From the IMG/VR virus record IMGVR_UViG_3300022074_000002: 64,000 nt of DNA; one strand, given 5' to 3'. The translations under genes were made by a program, and so were the position numbers. Below are positions 51,174 to 63,768 of the stretch, in pieces (position 1 is the stretch's first letter; the number at the start of each line of letters is the position of its first letter). The stretch is from a virus. Under the pieces are notes generated by a model. The model was not told the DNA's origin and did not search any database. It worked only from the letters and a program-made list of their open reading frames with translations.

Positions 51174-51352
51174 CAGAAGCATTAGAAATTACAAAAGAAG
51201 AATTTGATACTAACAAAGATGATTACCTTGATCGTGTAGAGAAAGGAGAGATTATTATTGTTAGACATCCTGATGGACGAGCAGTTCTTGCTATTCCAGA
51301 ACAGTGGGATGAAGACTTAATAAATTTATGGAACCATGATGACGGAGCATGA
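51170..51352 (+). CDS. Phd/YefM-like small protein
   Basis: EFDTNKDDYLDRVEKGEIIIVRHPDGRAVLAIP resembles the Phd N-terminal pattern. Confidence 0.5.
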   Translation: MTEALEITKEEFDTNKDDYLDRVEKGEIIIVRHPDGRAVLAIPEQWDEDLINLWNHDDGA

Positions 51353-52386
51353 TTAAAATTATAGAATCAATAGCACAGAAAGAACTCTACATGGGTTATA
51401 TCTTTGGTATTATGATAATAGGCGGTTACATCAGACAGTATCATGTACTTGATGATGTATATTCATTAGCAAAAAGATATGTAAAAGATGCTCGCATCAT
51501 GATTATTATTACATCATTGATAGGAGGAGTCTTACCAATACCTGGTAGAGTTGCATTGTCAGCACCACTATTGGATGCTATTGCACCACCTGATAAAAAG
51601 AAAAGAAGTGAGTTTGGTATTATAGATTATCTTTCTACACATCATTACTATTGGTGGTCACCATTAGAGAAGACAATCATTCTTCCTATGGCAGCACTAG
51701 GTATAACTTATGGAGAGATGCTAAGTTATACTTTTCCTTTTCTACTCGTATGCATTGGATACACTTGGTGGTATATCTTTACCAAAGTAAATCCTAGAAG
51801 TGTCATACCTGACATGAGTAACATCAGAGATTTTGATTGGAAGAGAGCATTAAAAGGTTGGGCACCATTCATAGCAACAATATGGTTCTTGTTATGTGTG
51901 GGTAAAGCAGGAGCAATCCTATTCTTTCCTTGGTTTGCTGCTATGTGTTGTTACTATGCATGGTTATGTAAGGATTGGAACTGGGGCAAGTATATTAATA
52001 AACAGTTTGCAATTATATCTACAATAGTTTTAGCACTAGGTGGTGTGGTAGGATTGATTAAAGAACCAGTTATGGTATATCTTAAATCTGCAACACCAGA
52101 AATGATTATACCTGTAACTATTGTATCCATGGTAGCAGCATGGATCATGGGATCATCAGGTAAGTATGCAGGAATGACATCAGCACTTGTGTTGATCTTT
52201 GGTCCTCAATATCTTACATGGTTTCTTGCTACAGAATACTCAGGGTACTTATTATCTCCTGCACATAAATGTTTAATGATAGGTCAACAATATTTTGGTA
52301 CACCAATTCGTAAATATTATGTTGTCTTAGGACGAATGTGTGCTATACTAATAGTATTAGCATTTATTGGCACCTTTTTACCATGA
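51349..52386 (+). CDS. Polytopic membrane protein, ion-transporter (IT) superfamily / DUF401-like
   Basis: About 9-10 hydrophobic helices; GGVLPIPG, HHYYWWSP, GYLLSPAHKCL motifs. Confidence 0.7.
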   Translation: MIKIIESIAQKELYMGYIFGIMIIGGYIRQYHVLDDVYSLAKRYVKDARIMIIITSLIGGVLPIPGRVALSAPLLDAIAPPDKKKRSEFGIIDYLSTHHYYWWSPLEKTIILPMAALGITYGEMLSYTFPFLLVCIGYTWWYIFTKVNPRSVIPDMSNIRDFDWKRALKGWAPFIATIWFLLCVGKAGAILFFPWFAAMCCYYAWLCKDWNWGKYINKQFAIISTIVLALGGVVGLIKEPVMVYLKSATPEMIIPVTIVSMVAAWIMGSSGKYAGMTSALVLIFGPQYLTWFLATEYSGYLLSPAHKCLMIGQQYFGTPIRKYYVVLGRMCAILIVLAFIGTFLP

Positions 52387-52978: not shown

Positions 52979-52984
52979 ATATTT

Positions 52985-53166
52985 GTTGGACGCAACGTTG
53001 GGAGTGACTGAATAAACTTACTGGCAACCGCTAGTTAAGGTGATGAGACACAGGTGGTGCTGCTACGAAAGTAGAACCGACTCAACCAGTCGGGTCTCAG
53101 GCAAGAAGGTTTTTACTCTGTAGTAATGCCCCTTCTTTGTTGGTATACAGGATTCCAACCTCCCTC
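52985..53166 (+). ncRNA. manA RNA: manA-class structured ncRNA
   Basis: GGGAGTGACTGAATAA...GGTGGTGCTGC signature recalled for manA; closing GGGAG/CTCCC, stems GAGAC/GTCTC, CTAC-GAAA-GTAG, CCGACT/AGTCGG, AGAAGG/CCTTCT, pseudoknot CTGTA/TACAG. Confidence 0.82.
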
Positions 53167-53234
53167 TTTATTTTTTAAAGACCTAAGATGCAACTGAGAA
53201 GTGGGGCAGATGGTCTTTTTTTATTGTGAATGTG

Positions 53235-53687
53235 ATGGACATAGACGAGATACAAGCACATAAGTATCCTTTCGCACAGGACATAAATCCAGATCTTCAT
53301 AGAGTCATTTGTGAGAATAGTGTTACCGAAGATAAGGGAGCATTGATGACTCAGTGGAATTGTTTTGATGTAGAAGAGTTTAATGTTATCGCAGACTATG
53401 CGAAGAGTTTAATTGATAGACCTACTAAATTGGTAGATCTATGGGGTCAAGTGTATCAGTATGGACACTATCAGAGTTATCATAATCATATTCATAACGA
53501 TTGGGCATTCGTATACTACGTGAATACACCATATGGATCTTCACCTATTGTATTCAGAACAAGTAACAAAAGAATTAAACCTATAACTGGGATGTTGATA
53601 TTATTTCCTGGTTATATGGATCATTATGTACCTCCTAATAAGGGAGAAGGTAGAAGTATCGTAGCGGGAAATTTAGTATACACATAA
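53235..53687 (+). CDS. 2OG-Fe(II) oxygenase-like protein
   Basis: WGQVY, YHNH, FVYYV, GMLILFPGYMDHYV, RSIVAGN; alternative GTG start at 53226. Confidence 0.78.
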   Translation: MDIDEIQAHKYPFAQDINPDLHRVICENSVTEDKGALMTQWNCFDVEEFNVIADYAKSLIDRPTKLVDLWGQVYQYGHYQSYHNHIHNDWAFVYYVNTPYGSSPIVFRTSNKRIKPITGMLILFPGYMDHYVPPNKGEGRSIVAGNLVYT

Positions 53688-53690
53688 ATA
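53684..53690 (+). promoter_or_regulatory. Late promoter (ATAAATA)
   Basis: Overlaps the upstream stop, precedes the fibre cluster. Confidence 0.65.
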
Positions 53691-53727: not shown

Positions 53728-55872
53728 ATGTCAAAAATTCTTGCAAATGAAATTGCTAATTACGGTGATGACTCACCGATAGATCTGAAGGAGGGTCTGA
53801 ATATCCCTGCTGGAAAACCAATACAGACAGCAGGATCGTCTGGTACTACAGGACAAGTCCTGTCTACTACAGGTACTACAGTGCAATGGGTAACACCATT
53901 TAGTGGAAGTTATAATGACTTATCTAATAGACCAACTATTCCTGCAGCACAGGTAAACTCTGATTGGAATGCTTCGAGTGGTGCTGCTGTAATCTTAAAC
54001 AAACCAGTAGTTCCTCCTCAATCAAGTGTCACTACAGCATCTGTAGGAACTGCTGCTCTATCATACAACAGTGGTAATGGAGAGTTTACATTCACTCCTC
54101 CAGATCTTTCATCATACGCTACAGAAACATACGTAACTACTAGAGGATACTTAACATCATATACAGAAACTGATCCTGTATTCTCTGCATCTGCTGCATC
54201 TAATGTAACTACTGCAAAAATTTCTAACTGGGATACATCATACAGTTGGGGTAATCATGCTTCTGTAGGATACTTAACTATGGAGTCTGATACTCTACAG
54301 ACAGTTGTTAGTAGAGGTAATACAAGTACAAGTCCAGCATACTTTACAGCAAAATTACAATATAGTAATGCGTTTGTAGCAGCAGATATTACTTCATCTC
54401 TTGCTACAACTTATGATGGTTTCTTTTTAAAGAATACTACTGATGGTAATGCATACTATTCACACAATACTGCATGGAAAAAATTATTAAATGAAGATTC
54501 AATCCTTGATAATCTATCTGATGTAGATCTATCTGTTGCACCTACAAATGGACAGGTTCTTAAATGGGATTCTGGTACATCAAGATGGAAAGCAGCAAAT
54601 GATTTAACAGGTGGTGGTGGAGGAGGTCTTTCACTATCAGATCTTTCTGTTCAATCATCAACAGCAGCAGGAGGAGGTACTCTTGTATACAATAATGGTA
54701 GTGGTGTATTTACATATACTCCACCAGATCTTAGTAGTTACATAACATCACTAGGAGATGCTATTCGTGATGCTGATTTCACAACCAGTGGTTTGATGAA
54801 GAGATCTAGTGCTGGAGTTTATACATCAACTACAGATAATAGTTCTAACTGGGACTCAGCATTTGGATGGGGTAACCATGCATCACAAGGATATCTAACA
54901 CAACTTCCTGTTCATGGACTAGGAGTTCATACTGGTGTAACTCTTACTAATGAAACAGCAGGAGACTTGTTACAATATAGTGGTACACAATGGGTTAACT
55001 GGACACCAAACTATCTTACATCAGAAACAGATACACTACAATCTGTAATTGATAGAGGTAATACTGTTACAGGGAAAGATATAAATTTTGGAGAATATGC
55101 AGCAAATGCTCCAAAGATTACATATGATGATTCTGACCATTTACTTTGGTTTAAAAAACAAACTGCTGGTGGTGCTTCTGCTAAAATCTGGTTAGGGAGT
55201 GGAGTAAGTTTTGATAATCTTGAACTTAAACAAACCTATACGAACGGTGGTCAATCAGAAATTACTGCATATAATTCAGACTTATTTTTATCAACTCAAT
55301 CTACTGGTAAAAATATTAAGATACAAAGTGGCAACGATATCTATATTAGTAACGGTGGTTATGATGCTATTAAAGTTCTAGAAAATGGTGTTAACAATGG
55401 TGCTGCTTTAAGTGTTGAACTTTACTGGGGAACAGGAGCAGGAAGTAAAAAATTAGAAACAACTACCAATGGAGTTACCGTATCAGGAGCGTTGACTGCT
55501 GGTGGTTTGACCTATCCAACAGTTAATGGTACAAATGGTCAGGTATTGACGAGTGATGGAGCTGGTAACGTAGCATGGGGAGTTGGCGGTGGTGGAGGTG
55601 CTAGTGTAACTATAAGTGACACACCTCCAGCAGCATCTGCTGGTGACCTATGGTGGGAAAGTGACAGTGGACGTCTAAAAATTTACTATCAAGATGTTGA
55701 TAGTTCACAGTGGGTTGATGTAGCACCACCACTTGCACCAGCGTTATCCTCAAACGCCCCTGCTACTGCTAGTTCTACTGGTACTGCGGGTGATATTAGA
55801 TATGATTCTGGTTATGTATACATTGCTGTTGCAACTAATACTTGGAAAAGAGCAGCACTAACAACTTGGTAA
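53728..55872 (+). CDS. Tail fibre-like structural protein
   Basis: Gly/Ser/Thr-rich; repeated TPPDLSSY, WGNHAS, DTLQxV..RGNT; GQVLT and GDLWWESDSG modules. Confidence 0.8.
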   Translation: MSKILANEIANYGDDSPIDLKEGLNIPAGKPIQTAGSSGTTGQVLSTTGTTVQWVTPFSGSYNDLSNRPTIPAAQVNSDWNASSGAAVILNKPVVPPQSSVTTASVGTAALSYNSGNGEFTFTPPDLSSYATETYVTTRGYLTSYTETDPVFSASAASNVTTAKISNWDTSYSWGNHASVGYLTMESDTLQTVVSRGNTSTSPAYFTAKLQYSNAFVAADITSSLATTYDGFFLKNTTDGNAYYSHNTAWKKLLNEDSILDNLSDVDLSVAPTNGQVLKWDSGTSRWKAANDLTGGGGGGLSLSDLSVQSSTAAGGGTLVYNNGSGVFTYTPPDLSSYITSLGDAIRDADFTTSGLMKRSSAGVYTSTTDNSSNWDSAFGWGNHASQGYLTQLPVHGLGVHTGVTLTNETAGDLLQYSGTQWVNWTPNYLTSETDTLQSVIDRGNTVTGKDINFGEYAANAPKITYDDSDHLLWFKKQTAGGASAKIWLGSGVSFDNLELKQTYTNGGQSEITAYNSDLFLSTQSTGKNIKIQSGNDIYISNGGYDAIKVLENGVNNGAALSVELYWGTGAGSKKLETTTNGVTVSGALTAGGLTYPTVNGTNGQVLTSDGAGNVAWGVGGGGGASVTISDTPPAASAGDLWWESDSGRLKIYYQDVDSSQWVDVAPPLAPALSSNAPATASSTGTAGDIRYDSGYVYIAVATNTWKRAALTTW

Positions 55873-55873
55873 A

Positions 55874-55880
55874 ATAAATA
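55874..55880 (+). promoter_or_regulatory. Late promoter (ATAAATA)
   Basis: Intergenic, before 55904. Confidence 0.55.
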
Positions 55881-55903: not shown

Positions 55904-56947
55904 ATGGCAATTAATTTTCCCGCAACGGGAGGGCAAGCAACTGACGGAACTTTTACATACACTGTAGCAGGGATAACATACGCATGGAATGGATCATCGT
56001 GGGCAGCTGCAGGAGCTGGTGCGAGTGCTACTAATAGATCATTGTTTAGTGTCACTACTAACTCTTCTTCTGGTGGTGGAGCATTAAGTTATGATCAGAA
56101 CAGTGGAGGATTTACATACACACCTCCAGATTTATCTGCGTTTATTACAGGAGAATCAGATACACTGGCAACAGTAACTGGAAGAGGTAACACAACAACT
56201 CAAACAATTGAAACTACTCTTGGTAGTTTTAAATGTCAGATTGGTAATGGTAATCAAGGATTTTATCTTTATAATGGTGCTTCAACACATGCATCTTTTC
56301 ATTGGAGTAGTTCTGCAAGTGGAAATTATTTTAGAGGTGATGCTGGTGGTAATCATCCATTCATTATGCAGGACTTTTCAAGTGTTAGTATAAATCCTGG
56401 CACTTCTGGTGTTAATTTAAGTTACGGTGGAAGTTATAAATTTTCCACTACTAATACTGGTGTAACAATTACGGGAGCGTTGACTGCTGGTGGCAATACT
56501 TATCCAACAACCAACGGGACTAGTGGACAGGTCTTGACTACTGATGGTGCAGGATCTGTAACATGGGAAACTGCTGCAGGATCAAGAACTACTGCAGTCG
56601 TAACAGTTAACATTGCAAACGAAGCTGTATCTAACACATCATTTACAACTCCCAAAACATATGCTCTTCTAAAAGTATCAACATCTCATGCTGCATGGGT
56701 AACATTATACAGTGATACTGGTAGTAGAACTGCTGATGCATCAAGAGGAATAAATGTAGATCCTTTACCAGGTTCTGGTGTTCTATCTGAAGTAATTACT
56801 ACTGGTAACCAAATACAATTAATTACACCTGGCACAATATGTTTTAACTCTGCTGGTACAGGAACCACATACGCAAAGATAGTTAATAAATCAGGATCAA
56901 CAGCGAACATAACAGTAACACTTACATACGTTGTATTGGAGAGTTAA
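55904..56947 (+). CDS. Tail fibre-like structural protein
   Basis: MAINFP start; shares TPPDLS, DTLAxV..RGNT and ALTAGGxTYP..GQVLT modules with the upstream gene. Confidence 0.78.
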   Translation: MAINFPATGGQATDGTFTYTVAGITYAWNGSSWAAAGAGASATNRSLFSVTTNSSSGGGALSYDQNSGGFTYTPPDLSAFITGESDTLATVTGRGNTTTQTIETTLGSFKCQIGNGNQGFYLYNGASTHASFHWSSSASGNYFRGDAGGNHPFIMQDFSSVSINPGTSGVNLSYGGSYKFSTTNTGVTITGALTAGGNTYPTTNGTSGQVLTTDGAGSVTWETAAGSRTTAVVTVNIANEAVSNTSFTTPKTYALLKVSTSHAAWVTLYSDTGSRTADASRGINVDPLPGSGVLSEVITTGNQIQLITPGTICFNSAGTGTTYAKIVNKSGSTANITVTLTYVVLES

Positions 56948-56948
56948 T

Positions 56949-59900
56949 ATGTCAGAAAAAATCTATATTGTCACTCTTCATAATAGGGAAGACTTGGACG
57001 GATTTTATGATGATATGAAGGACAATGGGTTTCGTTTAAATATGAAACGTCCTATCAGTAGGAACACACACTACTGGATGACAGATGAACAAGCAGAAGA
57101 ATTAAAACAAGATCCTAGAGTATGGGATGTAGACTTGCGTCCAGAAGATAGAGGAATATATCCTAAGAAATGTGCAACACCAACTGATAATCAAGTTCCT
57201 AGAACACTTGAGGGAAGTTTCTGGAAAGCAGGAGGCATTGATACTAACAATAGTTTTCCATGGGGTCTTTCACATACCATTGATTCTACAGGTACAGTTA
57301 GAGGTAAAGGACAGTTTGGATCAAGTGGAGGAAGTTATAATCAATATGTTACAACCATACCAGGTGATAATTATGAAAATGCATGGGGAGATGGTAGACA
57401 CGTAGACATAGTTGTTTGTGACGATCCTGTATCTGCTGACTGTGGTGATTGGAGTGGGTTTGCAGCAAACAGATTTGTTTCATATGATTGGTTCAACGAG
57501 TTGAATACTGAAGTGACATCTATAGATGATGATGGTCAGACTCTACCTACTGGAGCTGTAACTTACTATAGTAATGCAACCAATCCTGAGTATCATGGAA
57601 CTCACGTTGCTGGAACTTGTGCAGGAAATTATTATGGACTTGCAAACGAAGCAAACATATATGGATTACAAATTCTAGGAACGATGCCTTCTGGTCAGAG
57701 TTTACCTACACTATTATTATATGATTACCTTAGAGCATTCCATAAAAAGAAACCTATCAATCCTGTAACTGGATATAAGAACCCTACAATATCAAATCAT
57801 AGTTGGGGGTATAGTACAGAGACATCTTTAGAATCAGAATTTCCTGCTGGTATTGCAATTGGAAATGTTGTAGAAGTAAATTATCAAGGTGTGCAATACA
57901 ATTCTGGTAATCCTAATGCTGCTGGTTGGACAATGGCAGGATTAGAAACAGATTTTGGTATTGCTCCTAACAAATGGAGTATTCCTGTTACACTTACATC
58001 TGTCAATGCTGATGTAGAAGATGCTATTGCAGATGGTATAGTTATTATTTGTGCTGCTGGTAATGATAATTTTCATGTAGTACCACAAGGTGATGCAAAT
58101 TATAATAATTTTGTTATCTTCCAAGGATATAATAGTAACTCTCCAGTCTATTTTAATAGAGGTATGTCTCCTGCCAGTGCACCAAATGCAATTATGGTAG
58201 GATCATTAAATAGTGATGCTTCATTCAAGAGGTCATCTTTTACAAACTTCGGTCCTAGAATAGATGTCTTTGCACCTGGCACTAATATATTATCTGCATG
58301 GGGAAATCCTGCTACTATTACAGGAGGTAATGCAGGAGCAGGATTCGCTGATACGAAATATGGTGGTAATAACTGGATGTATCCTATAAGTGGAACTAGT
58401 ATGGCATCACCATTAATTGCTAGTGTTGCAGCAATGGTTGCTAGTGCTAGGAGGACAGATAGATTTAGTAATGATGATCTCCGTGCATACATGAATAACA
58501 ATAGTGTCTTTGGTGACATGACATTTGATGTTGGTGGAGGAACATTTGCTGACAACTCATGTAGAAAAGATAGTCCTAACAAATATTTGGTAACAAAAAA
58601 TCCTAGAAAACAGAATGGTAATTTACAGAATAAAGTAGGAGATAGAAGAAGTGGTGCAGTATTTCCTAGACCTAAAAAATTACATGCTACTAATGGATTT
58701 CCTAGTGGTCTATTATCTACCTCATCACAATTATCAATACAAAAAGAATGGAAATCATATAATTCAACAGTAGGTCCTACAGGTTTTAAAGATCCTGCAA
58801 CTGCTGGTTTATATAATTATCTTTCCGATCTATACATTCCTACTAATGAAGCAGGTCCTACAGGATACCCAGTAATGATTTGTTTACATGGTAATGGTGG
58901 TAATGGTAGTACTATCAATGATCCAATCTATGCTACACTAGGAGATCATATTAGAGTAGGTCCTTATGGTTCTGGAAGCAGTTGGAATATAGTTGATGAA
59001 AGTAGCATCGCTCCTGACATAGAATATCTAAGAAATCTTATTAAGTTATTGAAGACATTTACAAATGTAGATAGCACAAGAATTAGAATCTCTGGTATAT
59101 CTAATGGTGCAGCACTAGCATGCAGAGCATTTGTTGAGATAGATGATCCTGCTGTTGATTTAATTGTTCCTATTGTATCTCAATTTCATACTAATGAGGT
59201 AAATAATTTTACACAGTTCTTTATGCCAACAGATCATTTAGATACTAGTGGATCTGCTGGAAGTTATGGATACACTGTTCAGAAAGTTCCTGTTGCTGGT
59301 AGAAAAATATTGATGATGCAGAATACTAATGATGGTGTCATACCTTATAATGGTGGTGCTGGTGTTGGTATTCAATTCATAGGTGCTAGACTATCCACAT
59401 ATCGTATGGCACAAGCTATGGGATGGGCAGGAGGAGAACAGAATACTGGATTAACATTCCAAGGAGACGCAGCAACACAACTCTATCGTTATAATATTAA
59501 TGGGAATGTAAATGAAGTTGTTCATTGTGCAAGTAATGGTGGACATGGTGTCAATGCAAAGATGATTGCTTTGTTTGAGGAATGGGTAGAGAGTGATGGT
59601 CAGACAATTACAGTTACATTACCATCTAATACATATAATATAACTGTGACTGCAAACAGTAACGTTAACTATCAACTAAGTGGAAATGATAGGAATGGAT
59701 TAGTAACTGGTAATGATCCTACAGTTACTGTACAGGCAGGAGATACAATTAACTTTATTGTTTCAAATACATTTGGTCATCCATTCTATATTAAGACTGT
59801 TTATGTTGGTGGTTCTGGTAGTCAAGTATCAACAGGAACTGTAACTGGAACACAAGGAACACAGAGTGGAACTCTGTCTTGGAACACAACAGGAGTGTCA

Positions 59901-59972
59901 TCAGGAACATATTATTATGTTTGTTCTCCACACGCATCTCTTGGTATGGGTGGATCAATCGTCATCACATAA
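56949..59972 (+). CDS. Subtilisin (S8) protease + alpha/beta esterase + plastocyanin-like cupredoxin fusion
   Basis: S8: VCDD, HGTHVAGT, AAGND, GTSMASP; esterase: LHGNGG, GISNG, NDGVIPY, GGHG; Cu site: GHPF, CSPHASLGM. Confidence 0.82.
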   Translation: MSEKIYIVTLHNREDLDGFYDDMKDNGFRLNMKRPISRNTHYWMTDEQAEELKQDPRVWDVDLRPEDRGIYPKKCATPTDNQVPRTLEGSFWKAGGIDTNNSFPWGLSHTIDSTGTVRGKGQFGSSGGSYNQYVTTIPGDNYENAWGDGRHVDIVVCDDPVSADCGDWSGFAANRFVSYDWFNELNTEVTSIDDDGQTLPTGAVTYYSNATNPEYHGTHVAGTCAGNYYGLANEANIYGLQILGTMPSGQSLPTLLLYDYLRAFHKKKPINPVTGYKNPTISNHSWGYSTETSLESEFPAGIAIGNVVEVNYQGVQYNSGNPNAAGWTMAGLETDFGIAPNKWSIPVTLTSVNADVEDAIADGIVIICAAGNDNFHVVPQGDANYNNFVIFQGYNSNSPVYFNRGMSPASAPNAIMVGSLNSDASFKRSSFTNFGPRIDVFAPGTNILSAWGNPATITGGNAGAGFADTKYGGNNWMYPISGTSMASPLIASVAAMVASARRTDRFSNDDLRAYMNNNSVFGDMTFDVGGGTFADNSCRKDSPNKYLVTKNPRKQNGNLQNKVGDRRSGAVFPRPKKLHATNGFPSGLLSTSSQLSIQKEWKSYNSTVGPTGFKDPATAGLYNYLSDLYIPTNEAGPTGYPVMICLHGNGGNGSTINDPIYATLGDHIRVGPYGSGSSWNIVDESSIAPDIEYLRNLIKLLKTFTNVDSTRIRISGISNGAALACRAFVEIDDPAVDLIVPIVSQFHTNEVNNFTQFFMPTDHLDTSGSAGSYGYTVQKVPVAGRKILMMQNTNDGVIPYNGGAGVGIQFIGARLSTYRMAQAMGWAGGEQNTGLTFQGDAATQLYRYNINGNVNEVVHCASNGGHGVNAKMIALFEEWVESDGQTITVTLPSNTYNITVTANSNVNYQLSGNDRNGLVTGNDPTVTVQAGDTINFIVSNTFGHPFYIKTVYVGGSGSQVSTGTVTGTQGTQSGTLSWNTTGVSSGTYYYVCSPHASLGMGGSIVIT

Positions 59973-60006
59973 ATAAACTTGAGCAGTAGTAACATTTGGT
60001 AGATAA

Positions 60007-63000
60007 ATGGCAGATCGTTTTCCGTTAATAGTAAATGCGGTTTCTCAAAAGATTGAGGAACTGATTTCTGGTGACAATTTAGAATTGTCTGGTAACAATA
60101 TAGTCATAAGTGGTGACACAGGAGCAGGAAAATATCTTACCAGTAACGGTACGGTTGTTTCATGGGGAACACCTGGTGATGTGTATCTAACACAAAACCA
60201 AGTCTTAGAAAATAAAACTTTTACTTCATGTGTAATTTCTGGATCTGCTAATACTCTCTCTAACATACCAAACGCTGCTCTTTCAAACTCCACAATACAA
60301 GTAAACGGTGCTGCTATTGCTCTAGGTGGATCTGTTACAACACCAAATGACAACACCACTTACGTTGTGAGTGCACAAGATGGTGTCAATAATAATACAA
60401 AAGTTATTAGACTAACTGCTGGTGGATCAGGACAAGGAGATGATGATGTCAGTATCGCTGTAGGTCCTCCTGCTGCTGTTCCTGCTGGATCTAATGCTCT
60501 TGCTCTAGCAATCAATAGAGTTGGTGAAGTCATTACAATATCTGGTACAGCACCTGATGCTGATACTATAACAACAGTGAAGTCTGGAACTGGTGGTACA
60601 GCACAGACTGGAGATATTACAATTGCTGCAACTGGATCCTCTACAGTATCTCAGGACACAGCATCTAAAACAATTACGATCAACTCAACATATGTTGACA
60701 CGATCACGAAGATAAGAGCAACCACAGGACAAGTATTAAATCCTGGTAACTTTACATTCTTATCTGGTGGTGCTACTACTGTTGCTCAAGGTGTTGATGG
60801 TAATGGCGACTCAACAATTACATATACATCTGTTGATACTATAACCAGATTGAAGGGAGGAGCAGCTGGATCACTTGTAACTGGTGATGTCGAGTTTACT
60901 GGTGGAGCAAACGTCACAGTATCACAAGCGGGTAACACAATTAGTATTGCTAGTGTAGATACAAACACAGTAACTAGACTTTCATCTGGTGCTAACGTTG
61001 TTACTGCAGGAGACTTTAAGTTTGTAGGAACTGGTGCTACTAGCATTTCACAAGCAACTGCTGGTGGTGTAACAACATTCACAGTCACATCTGCTAACGA
61101 TGACACTGGTGCAGCGTTGACAGCATCCGCTGGTATCTTATTATCAGGTACAGATTTCCAATTAAAAAATGCTGGTAACTTTAGTGGTAATCAATTATTA
61201 AAGTGGGACTCTGGTAACAGTCAGATAGGAAACAGTTTGATTTCTGATAACGGGTCTACTGTTACAGTTTCTGGTGACTTAGTTGTAGATGGCACTCAAA
61301 CAATTTTAAATACTACTACTTTAATAGTAGAAGACAATAGTATAGAATTAAGAAAGGGAAATAATTTAGTTGGAAATGACGGCGGTGTACAGATAAACTT
61401 AGAAACAGATGGTAGTGGATCTGTCACAAAATATCAATCATTACAGTGGTTTAACTCTGGTGGATACTGGAGAGGATGGGACGGTTCTGTTGAAAGAAGG
61501 TTTGTTACAGAGGCAGAGACACAGATTCTTACTAACAAAACTCTTACATCTCCAACACTTACCTCACCTAACATCGGTGCTGCTGTTGCGACATCAGTCA
61601 ATGGTCTTATAGTTAGTACAACTGCATCTGCAACACTAGACATCGCAACATCTAAAGTGTTGGATGTAAATGATTCTCTAACATTAACATCAGATAACCC
61701 TGCTGCAACAGTTGCTGTTAACTTTAGAGTTGGTGGAGACGTAGCATATAGATCTGATACTCTTGCATCATTCTCATCTACCACATCTACACAGATGCGT
61801 GGTTTGATTACAGATACAACAGGATTAGATAAGTTAGTATTCCAGACCAACCCTACAATTTTAACTGGTATTACTACAACATCTGCAGGATTTAATTTAG
61901 TTAACACTGGTGCTACAAGTATATTGTTTGGTGGTGCTGCTGGAAGCATCGTCATGGGTGCTTCAACTGGTGATACAACTATCAACCATGACTTAATACT
62001 TAAAGAAGATCTCACTGTTGGTGTTGATACAAATGATAACGCTGTATTCAATGGTAATCTTAACATTGAAAATGCAGACCTTACAATACGTGGAACTTCT
62101 AGTGATCCAATGCAAATTGGTAGAGGTGGTGGTGCTGTAAATACAAACACTCGTGTGGGTACATCAGCACTTGCTGCAAACACTTCTGGATCTCAGAACA
62201 CAGCATTTGGATACCAAGCATTGTTCACAAATAATATTGGTGCATCCAATACTGCAATTGGCCACAGGGTTTTGAGGGCAGCGGGTGTCGGAAATAATAA
62301 TATTGGTATTGGTAAAGATGCATTACTTGTTACACTTTCTGGTAGTAAGAACCTTGCGATTGGTAACAATGCAATGGAGACAAACTCGACGGGTAGTGGA
62401 AACGTCTGTATTGGACACTATGCTGGTTTTGATGTACAAGGTAATAACAACGTTCTTATAGGTCCTGCATACAACGAGACTTCTGCTGATGTAACATTTA
62501 GACCTCCTAATATTAGTGGAGATAATCAACTTGTTATTGGTTCTGGTGGACAAGCATGGTTGCGTGGTGATTCTAGTTACAATATTAGTACTAGTCAAAA
62601 TCTTACCGTAGATGGAGATACACTTATCAAGGGTGATCTTACAGTTAATGGTACTACAACCACAATTAAATCTAATATTGTACAGATTACAGACAAGGCA
62701 ATTGAACTTGCTGCTGTTGTAAGTACACAGTTTACATGTACTGCTGTATCTGGATCTGCAAATATCGTAGCGATTGCTCCTACACTAGGACTAATACCTG
62801 GCATGGAGATTACATCAAACACTGCTGGTATTACAGTTCCTGCTGGAACAATCATTGTAAGTATCACAAACGACACAGCGGTATTGAGCAACAACGTAAC
62901 AGGATCTGGTACACCTACATTCAGTGCGATAGGTCCTTCTGATACTGCTGCAGAAGACGGTGGTATTATTGTTAAGGGTACAAGTGATAAGACATTCCTA

Positions 63001-63768
63001 TGGAGAGGAGTTGATGGTGGTGTAACATATAATAGTTGGACATCATCAGAACATATAGATCTTGCAAGTGGTAAGAACTATTATGTAAATGGTATTCTAA
63101 TTGCCAGTGATACTAATAAAGTTATCGGACCTACAAATGGTGGTGGTCAAGGACAGATTGATTTAAGTGGTGCTGGTGTTGCATACACACTTGGTAGTGC
63201 AGTCACAGGATCATCATTAACATCTGTCGGAACTCTTAGTGCATTGACTGTTAGTGATAATTTCAAAGTTAGACCAGGTAATACTTCAAACGCTACATGC
63301 TACATGGGAGTTGTAGGTAAATCTAGTGTAAACTATGCTGGAGGTAATGCCGATACTGCCTGTTTAAGAATTGAAGACACTGGTTCTAATAATGGTTATT
63401 ATCATGGATTGGAATTTAGAACAAGACGTAGTGGTGATATTAGATTATATGCTCATGATCAAGGTGATAATTTAGCTGATTTTGTTGTTGCAGTTGATAA
63501 TGGTAGTGTACTCGTAGAAAGATTACGCATACAATCTTCCGATGGTGACTTAGTACCTGGTTCAGATAACGCACAAGATCTTGGAGCATCTAACTTACGT
63601 TGGGCAAACGTCTACTCTGGTGACGTTCATCTAAACAACACAGGAATGGGTGGTAACGAGGTAGATGGAACTGAAGGAAACTGGACAATGCAAGAGGGTT
63701 CTGATGATCTATTCTTAATCAATAGAATCACTGGTAAGAAGTATAAGTTCAACTTAACTGAGGTTTAA
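60007..63768 (+). CDS. Long tail fibre with tandem and YadA-like repeats
   Basis: Four ~40-aa DT(I/N)T repeats; 14-residue NTAxG repeats; C-terminal RWANVYSGD...KKYKFNLTEV domain. Confidence 0.85.
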   Translation: MADRFPLIVNAVSQKIEELISGDNLELSGNNIVISGDTGAGKYLTSNGTVVSWGTPGDVYLTQNQVLENKTFTSCVISGSANTLSNIPNAALSNSTIQVNGAAIALGGSVTTPNDNTTYVVSAQDGVNNNTKVIRLTAGGSGQGDDDVSIAVGPPAAVPAGSNALALAINRVGEVITISGTAPDADTITTVKSGTGGTAQTGDITIAATGSSTVSQDTASKTITINSTYVDTITKIRATTGQVLNPGNFTFLSGGATTVAQGVDGNGDSTITYTSVDTITRLKGGAAGSLVTGDVEFTGGANVTVSQAGNTISIASVDTNTVTRLSSGANVVTAGDFKFVGTGATSISQATAGGVTTFTVTSANDDTGAALTASAGILLSGTDFQLKNAGNFSGNQLLKWDSGNSQIGNSLISDNGSTVTVSGDLVVDGTQTILNTTTLIVEDNSIELRKGNNLVGNDGGVQINLETDGSGSVTKYQSLQWFNSGGYWRGWDGSVERRFVTEAETQILTNKTLTSPTLTSPNIGAAVATSVNGLIVSTTASATLDIATSKVLDVNDSLTLTSDNPAATVAVNFRVGGDVAYRSDTLASFSSTTSTQMRGLITDTTGLDKLVFQTNPTILTGITTTSAGFNLVNTGATSILFGGAAGSIVMGASTGDTTINHDLILKEDLTVGVDTNDNAVFNGNLNIENADLTIRGTSSDPMQIGRGGGAVNTNTRVGTSALAANTSGSQNTAFGYQALFTNNIGASNTAIGHRVLRAAGVGNNNIGIGKDALLVTLSGSKNLAIGNNAMETNSTGSGNVCIGHYAGFDVQGNNNVLIGPAYNETSADVTFRPPNISGDNQLVIGSGGQAWLRGDSSYNISTSQNLTVDGDTLIKGDLTVNGTTTTIKSNIVQITDKAIELAAVVSTQFTCTAVSGSANIVAIAPTLGLIPGMEITSNTAGITVPAGTIIVSITNDTAVLSNNVTGSGTPTFSAIGPSDTAAEDGGIIVKGTSDKTFLWRGVDGGVTYNSWTSSEHIDLASGKNYYVNGILIASDTNKVIGPTNGGGQGQIDLSGAGVAYTLGSAVTGSSLTSVGTLSALTVSDNFKVRPGNTSNATCYMGVVGKSSVNYAGGNADTACLRIEDTGSNNGYYHGLEFRTRRSGDIRLYAHDQGDNLADFVVAVDNGSVLVERLRIQSSDGDLVPGSDNAQDLGASNLRWANVYSGDVHLNNTGMGGNEVDGTEGNWTMQEGSDDLFLINRITGKKYKFNLTEV

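What the first reader, a model, noticed from the sequence alone, without database searches (positions are those of the whole stretch)
56949..59972. Three-domain virion enzyme: subtilisin + LpqC/PHB-depolymerase-like esterase + blue-copper domain
Seen, in a 1007-aa ORF inside the late fibre operon: a propeptide-like N-terminus; a complete S8 triad and oxyanion Asn (DD, HGTHVAGT, AAGND, GTSMAS); a complete alpha/beta-hydrolase triad (GISNG, NDGVIPY, GGHG, with LHGNGG); and a C-terminal GHPF...YVCSPHASLGMGG whose Cys/His/Met spacing equals the plastocyanin loop (CSPHQGAGM). Inference: a tail-associated multi-hydrolase that digests protein plus ester-linked or acetylated surface or EPS layers, with a type-1 copper site of unknown role (redox sensing or metal binding). 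I know of no described phage protein with this combination.
Basis: partly seen in the sequence, partly recalled or inferred. Interest (0 to 1): 0.8.

Follow-up and report, generated by a model that had tools for sequence, protein, structure and literature searches.

The report
Cyanophage protease-esterase-blue-copper fibre-module protein
A marine cyanobacterial virus encodes, among its tail-fibre genes, one 1007-residue protein that joins a proteinase-K-type protease, a polysaccharide/polyester-type esterase and a small blue-copper domain, all with intact active-site residues; the protein family is common in such viruses, but I found no paper on what it does.

Summary
ORF 56949-59972 (+) encodes 1007 aa in five parts:
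- an I9-like propeptide;
- a proteinase-K-like S8 subtilase (D158, H219, N372, S484);
- a conserved disordered linker;
- an alpha/beta-hydrolase esterase of the Esterase_phb/FaeC (CE1-like) fold (HG647-648, S718, D795, H866);
- a C-terminal cupredoxin with His944, Cys992, His995 and Met1000.

Every one of these residues is invariant in 21 full-length relatives down to 42% identity. In two confident AlphaFold models each sits at its canonical position.

The gene lies in a T4-like cyanomyovirus fibre cluster. It is translationally coupled to a fibre-like gene that follows a late-promoter-like motif.

The architecture is not unique. Synechococcus phage S-MbCM7 (ACG-2014h) and many marine contigs carry it. 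Most relatives have only the protease, or the protease plus one to four cupredoxin modules. The same cupredoxin module sits on cyanophage baseplate gp9, which was detected in S-SM1 virions.

Best reading: a virion-borne, fibre-associated enzyme that strips protein and ester or acetyl groups from the host surface. Virion location and copper binding are inferred, not shown. This scan had already noted the protease-cupredoxin family on other DNA; the esterase insert is the new feature here.

The parts
55873..55880 (+). Late-promoter-like motif AATAAATA, 24 nt before the start codon of the upstream fibre-like gene
   Evidence: Similar motifs lie at 53683-53690 and 59968-59975, each before a fibre-gene start. 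That NATAAATA is the T4-type late promoter comes from my own knowledge of T4-like phages.
55904..56947 (+). Upstream fibre-like gene (347 aa). Its last ~110 aa form a conserved C-terminal domain that always directly precedes the protease gene
   Evidence: PHROG 9627/15343/9729. A homologue lies directly upstream of the protease gene in 55 of 57 assessable loci. Alignment A6 has mean identity 57%.
56938..56943 (+). Ribosome-binding site GGAGAG. The stop of the upstream gene (TAA, 56945-56947) lies 1 nt before the ATG, which suggests translational coupling
   Evidence: Sequence read.
56949..59972 (+). The whole ORF, 1007 aa plus stop (P0001)
   Evidence: PHROG 9158 matches the full length, E 3e-202.
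56949..57158 (+). Residues 1-70: I9-like subtilase propeptide (beta-alpha-beta-beta-alpha-beta), with no signal peptide
   Evidence: AF2 model ma591bee4a450: E4-10, H13-25, E29-32, E39-44, H46-52, E58-63, pLDDT 81-91. Foldseek alignments to the pro-forms 3whi, 3afg and 5vlh span about 550-570 columns. Pfam I9 itself was not hit.
57381..58538 (+). Residues ~145-530: proteinase-K-like S8 catalytic domain. D158 (57420-57422), H219 (57603-57605), oxyanion N372 (58062-58064), S484 (58398-58400)
   Evidence: Pfam PF00082, E 1.7e-28. Best PDB sequence hits are proteinase K and Vibrio proteinase. Foldseek 2b6n, E 9e-17. The residues are invariant and sit at the canonical strand or helix ends.
58539..58715 (+). 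Residues ~531-589: low-confidence linker carrying the conserved motif NPR..G..R..SG..FPRP
   Evidence: pLDDT is below 50 for residues 554-583, yet R553, R566, P573 and R574 are invariant. The same motif forms the C-terminus of protease-only relatives, and in other relatives it sits behind the cupredoxin modules.
58716..59618 (+). Residues 590-890: alpha/beta-hydrolase esterase of the Esterase_phb/FaeC kind. Oxyanion H647-G648, nucleophile S718 in G-I-S-N-G (59100-59102), D795 (59331-59333), H866 (59544-59546)
   Evidence: AF2 pLDDT about 90. Foldseek hits: 9j07 5.4e-14, 8jh8 2.2e-9, 8daj 8.5e-8. The profile search finds 6352 relatives. The triad is invariant in A1-A3; in A4 H58/G59, D206 and H277 are invariant and S129 is in at least 90% of rows.
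59631..59969 (+). Residues 895-1007: cupredoxin (type-1 copper) domain. H944 (59778-59780), C992 (59922-59924), H995 (59931-59933), M1000 (59946-59948)
   Evidence: Pfam PF00127, 34.9 bits, above the cut-off. Plastocyanin alignments. The ligands are invariant. pLDDT is above 90, and the ligand loop lies between the last two strands. Rusticyanin 1gy2 Foldseek hit, E 1.3e-5.
59968..59975 (+). Late-promoter-like motif CATAAATA overlapping the stop codon, 31 nt before the next gene
60007..63768 (+). Downstream virion structural protein (1253 aa)
   Evidence: PHROG 6002 'virion structural protein', 1564 bits. A homologue is adjacent downstream in 38 of 69 assessable loci.

Best explanation
This is a late-expressed protein of the tail-fibre module of a T4-like cyanomyovirus.

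How it is made: it is made in the cytoplasm as a pro-enzyme, since it has no signal peptide. The I9-like propeptide folds the proteinase-K-like domain and keeps it masked until it is cut off.

Where it goes: the mature protein is carried on the virion, on or beside the fibre encoded immediately upstream.

What it does at adsorption: the protease cuts surface proteins of the picocyanobacterial host. The CE1/Esterase_phb-like esterase removes acetyl or other acyl esters from surface polysaccharide. Together they clear or remodel the receptor layer.

The C-terminal cupredoxin: it is a module shared with baseplate gp9 and other fibre proteins. It binds one copper ion through His944, Cys992, His995 and Met1000. 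It most likely serves as a metal-stabilised surface-binding or docking module. A redox role is possible.

Shown: the domain identities, the intact and conserved catalytic and ligand residues, the fibre-cluster context, and the modular family.

Inferred: late expression, propeptide processing, virion location, the substrates, and copper loading.
For: Domains and residues. All 12 catalytic or ligand residues are invariant across 42-94% identity, and each lies at the canonical secondary-structure position.

Context:
- The neighbours are fibre-like and virion structural proteins.
- The start codon lies 1 nt after the stop of a fibre-like gene that follows a late-promoter-like motif.
- The same gene order holds in 55 of 57 loci upstream and 38 of 69 loci downstream.
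- In S-CREM1 the orthologue lies between two baseplate wedge genes.

Modularity:
- Of 83 loci, 16 have the protease alone, about 55 have the protease plus one to four cupredoxin modules, and 8 have protease, esterase and cupredoxin.
- 78 of 112 cupredoxin copies keep His-Cys-His-Met. The degenerate copies are mostly internal copies of tandem arrays.
- The same module occurs on proteins annotated as proximal tail fibre, long tail fibre and gp9 baseplate connector.
- S-SM1 gp9 carries the module with HPF and CTIHAAM. Its gene cluster, T4-GC 398, is listed as detected with 25 peptides in purified virions (Sullivan 2010, PMC3037559, Table S8).

Esterase relatives:
- Cellular relatives are often secreted. 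In a sample of 31, six carry a type-IX secretion tail and single others carry PA14 or dockerin domains.
- The nearest solved enzyme deacetylates xylan and does not cleave feruloyl esters (PMC12103068).
Against: - No virion proteome covers this family. T4-GC 292 has no proteomic flag, and S-SM1, S-PM2 and Syn9 lack the gene. The 14-protein S-CREM1 proteome does not appear to include its orthologue.
- No recognisable virion-anchor domain or trimeric fibre shaft is present.
- The protein is made in the cytoplasm, where free copper is scarce. Known cupredoxins acquire copper after export, so copper loading is uncertain.
- The esterase fails the curated cut-offs of every named family, so its substrate cannot be read from homology.
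- Late timing rests on a short motif that is no more frequent in the window than chance would give.
Confidence: 0.55

Rival explanations
1. It is a soluble late enzyme and not a virion part. It accumulates as a masked pro-enzyme and is released at lysis, or acts on the envelope from within. It then degrades envelope proteins and acylated polymers. This would aid lysis and dispersal, or destroy receptors on debris and neighbouring cells so that progeny are not lost.
For: There is no virion-anchor domain and no proteomic detection. The propeptide fits an enzyme that must stay inactive inside the cell. Cellular relatives of the esterase are free secreted enzymes.
Against: Placement is strict: inside the fibre or baseplate cluster and translationally coupled to a fibre-like gene in 55 of 57 loci. 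The C-terminal module is shared with bona fide baseplate and fibre proteins. No signal peptide or holin-linked context was seen.
Confidence: 0.22
2. The protease is an assembly factor. It trims or matures the neighbouring fibre proteins, for example by removing the conserved C-terminal domain of the upstream protein. The appended modules only target it to the assembling fibres.
For: The pairing with an upstream gene that always ends in the same ~110-aa domain is nearly invariant. Phage fibres commonly need dedicated chaperones or proteases (established knowledge, for example the S74 self-cleaving chaperone domains). Protease-only forms exist.
Against: A broad-specificity proteinase-K-type enzyme with its own propeptide is unlike the known fibre chaperones. 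This reading does not explain an intact esterase or the conserved copper site.
Confidence: 0.13
3. The C-terminal cupredoxin fold is only a beta-sandwich adhesion or spacer module. In the particle it holds no copper, being empty or zinc-loaded, and the ligand set is retained for fold stability.
For: The protein is made in the cytoplasm without export. Internal tandem copies have lost the ligands yet persist. Ig-like modules are common decorations of phage fibres (established knowledge).
Against: All four ligands are invariant across 42-94% identity, and 78 of 112 copies keep them. The ligand-loop length varies (x4 against x2) while the ligands stay, which points to selection on metal binding. 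Apo-cupredoxins gain stability from the metal (established knowledge).
Confidence: 0.3

Closest known systems
Proteinase-K-like subtilases (MEROPS S8A; Pfam PF00082) made with an I9 propeptide, for example proteinase K (1ic6), Vibrio/Serratia proteinases (1s2n, 2b6n) and aqualysin (4dzt)
   Same: It has the Asp-His-Ser triad and oxyanion Asn in the canonical order and structural positions. The N-terminal propeptide has the beta-alpha-beta-beta-alpha-beta order. These are its best sequence and fold matches.
   Different: It has no signal peptide. It carries large insertions: about 55 residues between Asp and His, and about 20 residues before the catalytic Ser. Residues 70-145 form an extra segment. 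It is phage-encoded in a fibre cluster and fused to other modules.
Esterase_phb / FaeC alpha/beta-hydrolases (CE1-related): Aspergillus oryzae acetyl xylan esterase B (9j07), Acremonium feruloyl esterase (8jh8), Lihuaxuella PHB depolymerase (8daj)
   Same: It shares the fold, the HG oxyanion motif, the G-x-S-x-G elbow and the Ser-Asp-His order. The weak sequence hit to 9j07 covers the HG-to-Ser region.
   Different: Identity is only 14-20%. It falls below the cut-offs of PF10503 and NF050058. It belongs to a large family that matches Pfam models only weakly and has 6352 representatives. Its substrate is unknown. I know of no report that marine picocyanobacteria store PHB (own knowledge), so a PHB substrate seems unlikely.
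Plastocyanin and amicyanin (single-domain type-1 blue copper proteins; Pfam PF00127)
   Same: It has the Greek-key sandwich, the upstream His, and Cys-x2-His-x4-Met in the last loop. It aligns to Synechocystis plastocyanin with all four ligands matched. More distant relatives have the amicyanin-like x2 loop.
   Different: It is not exported. It is a C-terminal module of a 1007-aa enzyme and of phage fibre and baseplate proteins. No electron-transfer partner is evident. It scores far below the NCBIfam plastocyanin equivalog cut-off (32.4 against 87.85 bits).
Virion-borne receptor-modifying enzymes of phages (tailspike depolymerases and deacetylating esterases, such as the O-antigen deacetylase of coliphage G7C gp63.1 and the Vi-capsule acetyl esterase tailspikes; from my own knowledge)
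   Same: The proposed role is the same: an enzyme in the adsorption apparatus that strips or remodels the host surface layer. The gene also lies among fibre genes.
   Different: As I recall, those esterases are SGNH-fold enzymes on trimeric spikes with defined anchor domains. Here the esterase is an alpha/beta-hydrolase, a protease is fused to it, no anchor or trimeric shaft is seen, and virion location is unproven.
Synechococcus phage S-MbCM7 (ACG-2014h) gp177 and the S-CAM4 / S-H9-1 / S-RSM4 / P-SSM2 'Peptidase_S8' genes (T4-GC 292; PHROG 9158)
   Same: They are orthologous. S-MbCM7 gp177 has the same three-domain order at 41% identity over 99% of the length and sits in the same fibre-cluster position.
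   Different: Most named isolates lack the esterase: they have protease plus cupredoxin, or protease only. All are annotated only as hypothetical or subtilisin-like, with no functional data.

Membership tests
Peptidase S8 (subtilase), proteinase-K subfamily | Sequence match to the family model above the curated cut-off | tested here: met
   PF00082 scores 100.2 bits against a cut-off of 21.8. Proteinase K and its relatives are the top PDB hits.
Peptidase S8 (subtilase), proteinase-K subfamily | Catalytic Asp, His, Ser in that order, plus the oxyanion Asn | tested here: met
   D158, H219, N372 and S484 are invariant in A1 and A5. His, Asn and Ser align to the catalytic positions of solved enzymes. 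Asp is placed by fold only, at the end of strand 153-156.
Peptidase S8 (subtilase), proteinase-K subfamily | N-terminal I9-type propeptide | tested here: inconclusive
   The fold order fits, and Foldseek alignments to unprocessed pro-forms span the N-terminus. Pfam I9 gave no hit at E <= 1, and no cleavage site could be defined.
Peptidase S8 (subtilase), proteinase-K subfamily | Proteolytic activity | not testable with these tools
   Needs an enzyme assay.
Esterase_phb / CE1-like alpha/beta-hydrolase (PHB depolymerase, acetyl xylan and feruloyl esterases) | Alpha/beta-hydrolase fold closest to members of this group | tested here: met
   Foldseek hits are 9j07 5.4e-14, 8jh8, 8daj/9byu, 8iyb and 5x6s. 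PMC12103068 places these entries in the ESTHER families Esterase_phb and FaeC.
Esterase_phb / CE1-like alpha/beta-hydrolase (PHB depolymerase, acetyl xylan and feruloyl esterases) | G-x-S-x-G nucleophile, acid and His in the order Ser-Asp-His, and an HG oxyanion motif | tested here: met
   G716-I-S718-N-G720, D795, H866 and H647-G648 are invariant in A1-A3; in A4 S129 is in at least 90% of rows and the others are invariant. Each lies in the canonical loop of the model.
Esterase_phb / CE1-like alpha/beta-hydrolase (PHB depolymerase, acetyl xylan and feruloyl esterases) | Score above the curated cut-off of the family models (PF10503; NCBIfam NF050058 PHA depolymerase) | tested here: not met
   NF050058 scores 35.7 bits against a cut-off of 150. 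PF10503 is not hit by the query and is hit by 1 of 32 scanned members of A4 (the query plus 31 relatives), at E 2.8e-4. I therefore describe it as 'of that fold and kind' and do not file it as a member.
Type-1 blue copper protein (cupredoxin, PF00127) | Sequence match above the curated cut-off | tested here: met
   PF00127 scores 34.9 bits against a cut-off of 21.2.
Type-1 blue copper protein (cupredoxin, PF00127) | Four ligands: an upstream His plus Cys-x2-His-xn-Met in the loop between the last two strands | tested here: met
   H944, C992, H995 and M1000 are invariant. They align to the plastocyanin ligands. The loop lies between strands 403-409 and 418-423 of the model.
Type-1 blue copper protein (cupredoxin, PF00127) | Copper actually bound (blue colour, EPR); export to an oxidising compartment | not testable with these tools
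   Copper binding needs biochemistry. Export: there is no signal peptide at the N-terminus, so the usual route of copper loading does not apply.
Plastocyanin proper (NCBIfam TIGR02656 equivalog) | Score above the equivalog cut-off | tested here: not met
   It scores 32.4 bits against a cut-off of 87.85. It is plastocyanin-like but not plastocyanin.
Virion-associated depolymerase / receptor-modifying tail enzyme | Gene inside the tail-fibre or baseplate module | tested here: met
Virion-associated depolymerase / receptor-modifying tail enzyme | Protein detected in purified virions | not tested
   No proteome of a phage carrying the gene shows it. T4-GC 292 has no proteomic flag. There is only indirect support: the cupredoxin-bearing gp9 of S-SM1 was detected in virions.
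Virion-associated depolymerase / receptor-modifying tail enzyme | Recognisable virion-anchor domain or trimeric spike or fibre shaft | tested here: not met
   Pfam, PHROG and fold searches find none. The only candidate is the conserved disordered NPR...FPR motif, whose role is unknown.

The most novel reading that the evidence does not exclude
T4-like cyanophage particles carry redox-active type-1 copper centres on their baseplate, their fibres and this enzyme. The copper site takes part in infection itself. It might sense or exchange electrons with the redox or light state of the host surface to gate adsorption, or it might deliver copper locally. In this reading the protein is a three-activity adsorption machine (protease, deacylase, copper centre) with no counterpart among described phage tail proteins.
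Probability: 0.12. Interest if true: 0.9.

Novelty: new variant of a known kind. Interest (0 to 1): 0.62.

Why it matters
T4-like cyanophages kill a substantial share of marine Prochlorococcus and Synechococcus. How they recognise and penetrate the cell surface is largely unknown.

- A particle-borne proteinase-K-type protease and a deacylating esterase would point to specific surface layers, protein and acylated polysaccharide, as barriers or receptors. They would give testable handles on host range.
- Conserved blue-copper sites on structural phage proteins would be a new use of this fold. They would also link phage infectivity to copper, a trace metal that is both scarce and toxic for picocyanobacteria.
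- The modular family (protease alone, plus one to four cupredoxins, plus esterase) is a natural series for dissecting what each module does.

Tried and rejected
- Complex prediction of the protease part (residues 1-583, A5) with the conserved C-terminal domain of the upstream protein (A6) scored 0.04 and gave no verdict. This is neither support for nor evidence against binding.
- The window's own assembly is not held, and the nearest record, G001, is a 13-kb fragment with no match. I therefore made no genome-wide count of cupredoxin modules or of petE.
- The exact T4 late promoter TATAAATA is absent near the gene. The shorter ATAAATA is present before three fibre genes but is not enriched in the window, so late timing stays an inference.
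- Literature searches for cyanophage plus subtilisin / peptidase S8 / plastocyanin-like, for phage plus cupredoxin plus tail fiber, and for virion-associated subtilisin-like found nothing relevant.
- PHB depolymerase as the actual function is set aside. The curated model fails, and I know of no report that the likely hosts store PHB (own knowledge).
- A gene-fusion artefact is rejected. The same reading frame recurs on many independent contigs at 42-94% identity.
- The conserved stretch at 53000-53173, which matched many phages at about 94%, is the known manA RNA and is unrelated to the finding.
Full report
**What is there**

The window belongs to a T4-like cyanomyovirus (Kyanoviridae). Its replication genes are about 76% identical at DNA level to Synechococcus phages S-RSM4, S-CAM4 and ACG-2014j.

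The ORF 56949-59972 (+) is real and encodes 1007 residues. The ATG at 56949 follows a GGAGAG site and lies one base after the TAA of the upstream gene. All homologues start with the same MSEKIY sequence.

The neighbours on the same strand are:
- a 714-aa tail-fibre-like protein (53728-55872);
- a 347-aa fibre-like protein (55904-56947);
- a 1253-aa virion structural protein (60007-63768);
- a tail-collar fibre protein (from 63770).

Motifs of the T4 late-promoter type (C/A-ATAAATA) lie 24-37 nt before the starts at 53728, 55904 and 60007. The short motif is not enriched in the window, so late timing is an inference.

**Domains**

1. Residues 1-70 fold as beta-alpha-beta-beta-alpha-beta. Foldseek alignments to unprocessed pro-subtilisin E, pro-Tk-SP and PCSK9 extend over this part. 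This is an I9-like propeptide. There is no signal peptide.

2. Residues ~145-530 are a proteinase-K-like S8 subtilase.
   - Pfam E 1.7e-28; best PDB sequences are proteinase K and the Vibrio proteinase; Foldseek 2b6n 9e-17.
   - D158, H219, N372 and S484 are invariant.
   - Each sits where the fold requires: Asp after strand 153-156, His and Ser at helix starts, Asn after strand 365-369.

3. Residues ~531-589 are predicted disordered. They nevertheless carry invariant Arg and Pro residues in a motif NPR..G..R..SG..FPRP.
   - In protease-only relatives this motif is the C-terminus.
   - In relatives with several cupredoxins it moves behind them.
   - Its role is unexplained. Docking to the particle or a processing site are the obvious candidates.

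4. Residues 590-890 are an alpha/beta-hydrolase.
   - Curated sequence models fail: BD-FAE E 0.031; PHA-depolymerase model 35.7 bits against a cut-off of 150.
   - A model with pLDDT 89.8 matches Aspergillus oryzae acetyl xylan esterase B (5.4e-14), feruloyl esterases and a PHB depolymerase. These are the ESTHER Esterase_phb/FaeC group, related to CE1 (PMC12103068).
   - H647-G648, S718 (in G-I-S-N-G), D795 and H866 are invariant in the phage alignments; among more distant relatives the Ser is kept in at least 90% of rows. They lie in the oxyanion loop, the nucleophile elbow and the two canonical loops.
   - A profile search of 1.84 billion representatives finds 6352 relatives, 161 of them below 1e-30.
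   - A sample of these gives only weak Pfam hits to general alpha/beta-hydrolase models. Some carry type-IX secretion tails (6 of the sample) or PA14 and dockerin domains (one each), so they are secreted cellular esterases. The Atlas look-up agrees.

5. Residues 895-1007 are a cupredoxin.
   - PF00127 scores above its cut-off.
   - phmmer aligns it to cyanobacterial plastocyanins with His944, Cys992, His995 and Met1000 on the four ligands.
   - pLDDT is above 90, and the ligand loop lies between the last two strands.

**The family**

- PHROG 9158 covers the full length.
- tblastn finds the three-domain form in isolate S-MbCM7/ACG-2014h (41% identity, 99% coverage, annotated 'hypothetical'). 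It finds protease plus cupredoxin in S-CAM4, ACG-2014e/j and S-H9-1, and protease only in S-RSM4 and S-WAM2.
- Sullivan et al. 2010 already list the cluster as T4-GC 292 'Peptidase_S8', present in P-SSM2 and one Synechococcus phage, with no proteomic flag.
- At least 19 clusters at 90% identity in marine metagenomes hold full-length three-domain proteins. One was auto-named 'poly(3-hydroxybutyrate) depolymerase/plastocyanin'.
- In IMG/VR, 564 stretches encode relatives. Among 83 loci I counted 16 protease-only forms, about 55 with one to four cupredoxin modules, and 8 with esterase plus cupredoxin.
- 78 of 112 cupredoxin copies keep His-Cys-His-Met. The degenerate copies are mainly internal members of tandem arrays.
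- The loop is x4 (plastocyanin-like) in the query's clade and x2 (amicyanin-like) in most others.
- The esterase domain also occurs behind a YHYH domain in the S-ShM2/S-RIM14 protein that is mis-annotated as gp7.

**Link to the particle**

- The cupredoxin module is found by fold and by HMM on proteins annotated as proximal tail fibre (P-SSM2), long tail fibre (S-SCSM1), gp9 baseplate connector (S-H34, S-RIM14, S-ShM2) and others.
- S-SM1 gp9 has it with HPF and CTIHAAM.
- The S-SM1 virion proteome lists that gene cluster (T4-GC 398) as detected with 25 peptides. I read the table columns by their internal logic: the T4 copy number 18 fits gp9.
- So proteins carrying this module do reach the virion. 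For the protease-esterase protein itself there is no such evidence.
- The gene directly upstream ends in the same ~110-aa domain in 55 of 57 loci. This indicates a functional pair, either a docking partner or a substrate.

**Interpretation**

The most economical reading is a fibre-associated, virion-borne enzyme that acts on the host surface. The protease acts on surface protein, and the esterase on acyl-decorated polysaccharide. The cupredoxin is a copper-stabilised binding or docking module shared across the adsorption apparatus.

The rivals are:
- a soluble late enzyme released at lysis;
- a fibre-maturation protease;
- a copper-free structural sandwich.

What speaks against copper loading is synthesis in the cytoplasm. 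What speaks for it is strict conservation of all four ligands while the loop length changes.

**Novelty**

- Each domain belongs to a well-known superfamily, and the gene family has been in databases since 2005-2014. I found no paper that discusses it.
- Earlier notes of this scan described the protease-cupredoxin family on other DNA (e1-4211931, e1-5353851). My independent tests agree with them.
- What this window adds is the esterase insert, and with it a three-activity form.
- I class it as a new variant of a known kind (virion-associated surface-modifying enzymes). An unexplained and potentially important feature is the conserved type-1 copper site.

Noticed in passing
window 52984-53169 (+): A manA RNA motif (Rfam RF01745, 181 bits) fills the intergenic gap before the 2OG-Fe(II) oxygenase-like gene. 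It explains the ~94% DNA identity of this stretch to many cyanophages, where it is mostly unannotated.
   Followed up: partly
window 56495-56944 (+) and alignment A6: A ~110-aa C-terminal domain (consensus ...KTYALLKIQTSHAAWVTLYTD...PGSGVIAEVITTG...VVNKSG...) ends the protein directly upstream of the protease gene in 55 of 57 loci. It also ends several other fibre-like proteins. It has no Pfam family.
   Followed up: partly
window 58596-58673 (+), residues 550-575: A disordered but conserved motif NPR..G..R..SG..(F/Y)PR forms the C-terminus of protease-only relatives, is a linker here, and sits behind the cupredoxin modules in other relatives. Its role is unknown.
   Followed up: partly
window 53684, 55874, 59969 (+): ATAAATA motifs lie 24-37 nt before three fibre-gene starts. 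All 16 copies of the motif in the 64-kb window are on the + strand.
   Followed up: partly
L084:2391-3614 (Synechococcus phage S-SM1 gp9, SSM1_103): The baseplate gp9 homologue carries a C-terminal cupredoxin with an intact HPF...CTIHAAM ligand set. Its gene cluster is listed as detected in purified virions (Sullivan 2010, Table S8).
   Followed up: yes
L003:4392-6113 (Synechococcus phage S-ShM2 SShM2_094): The protein annotated 'gp7 baseplate wedge initiator' (573 aa) is really a YHYH-domain protein with the same esterase domain at its C-terminus. The annotation looks wrong.
   Followed up: partly
window 51349-52386 (+): A 345-aa DUF401-like membrane protein (PHROG 14035) lies next to talC among the auxiliary metabolic genes.
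   Followed up: no
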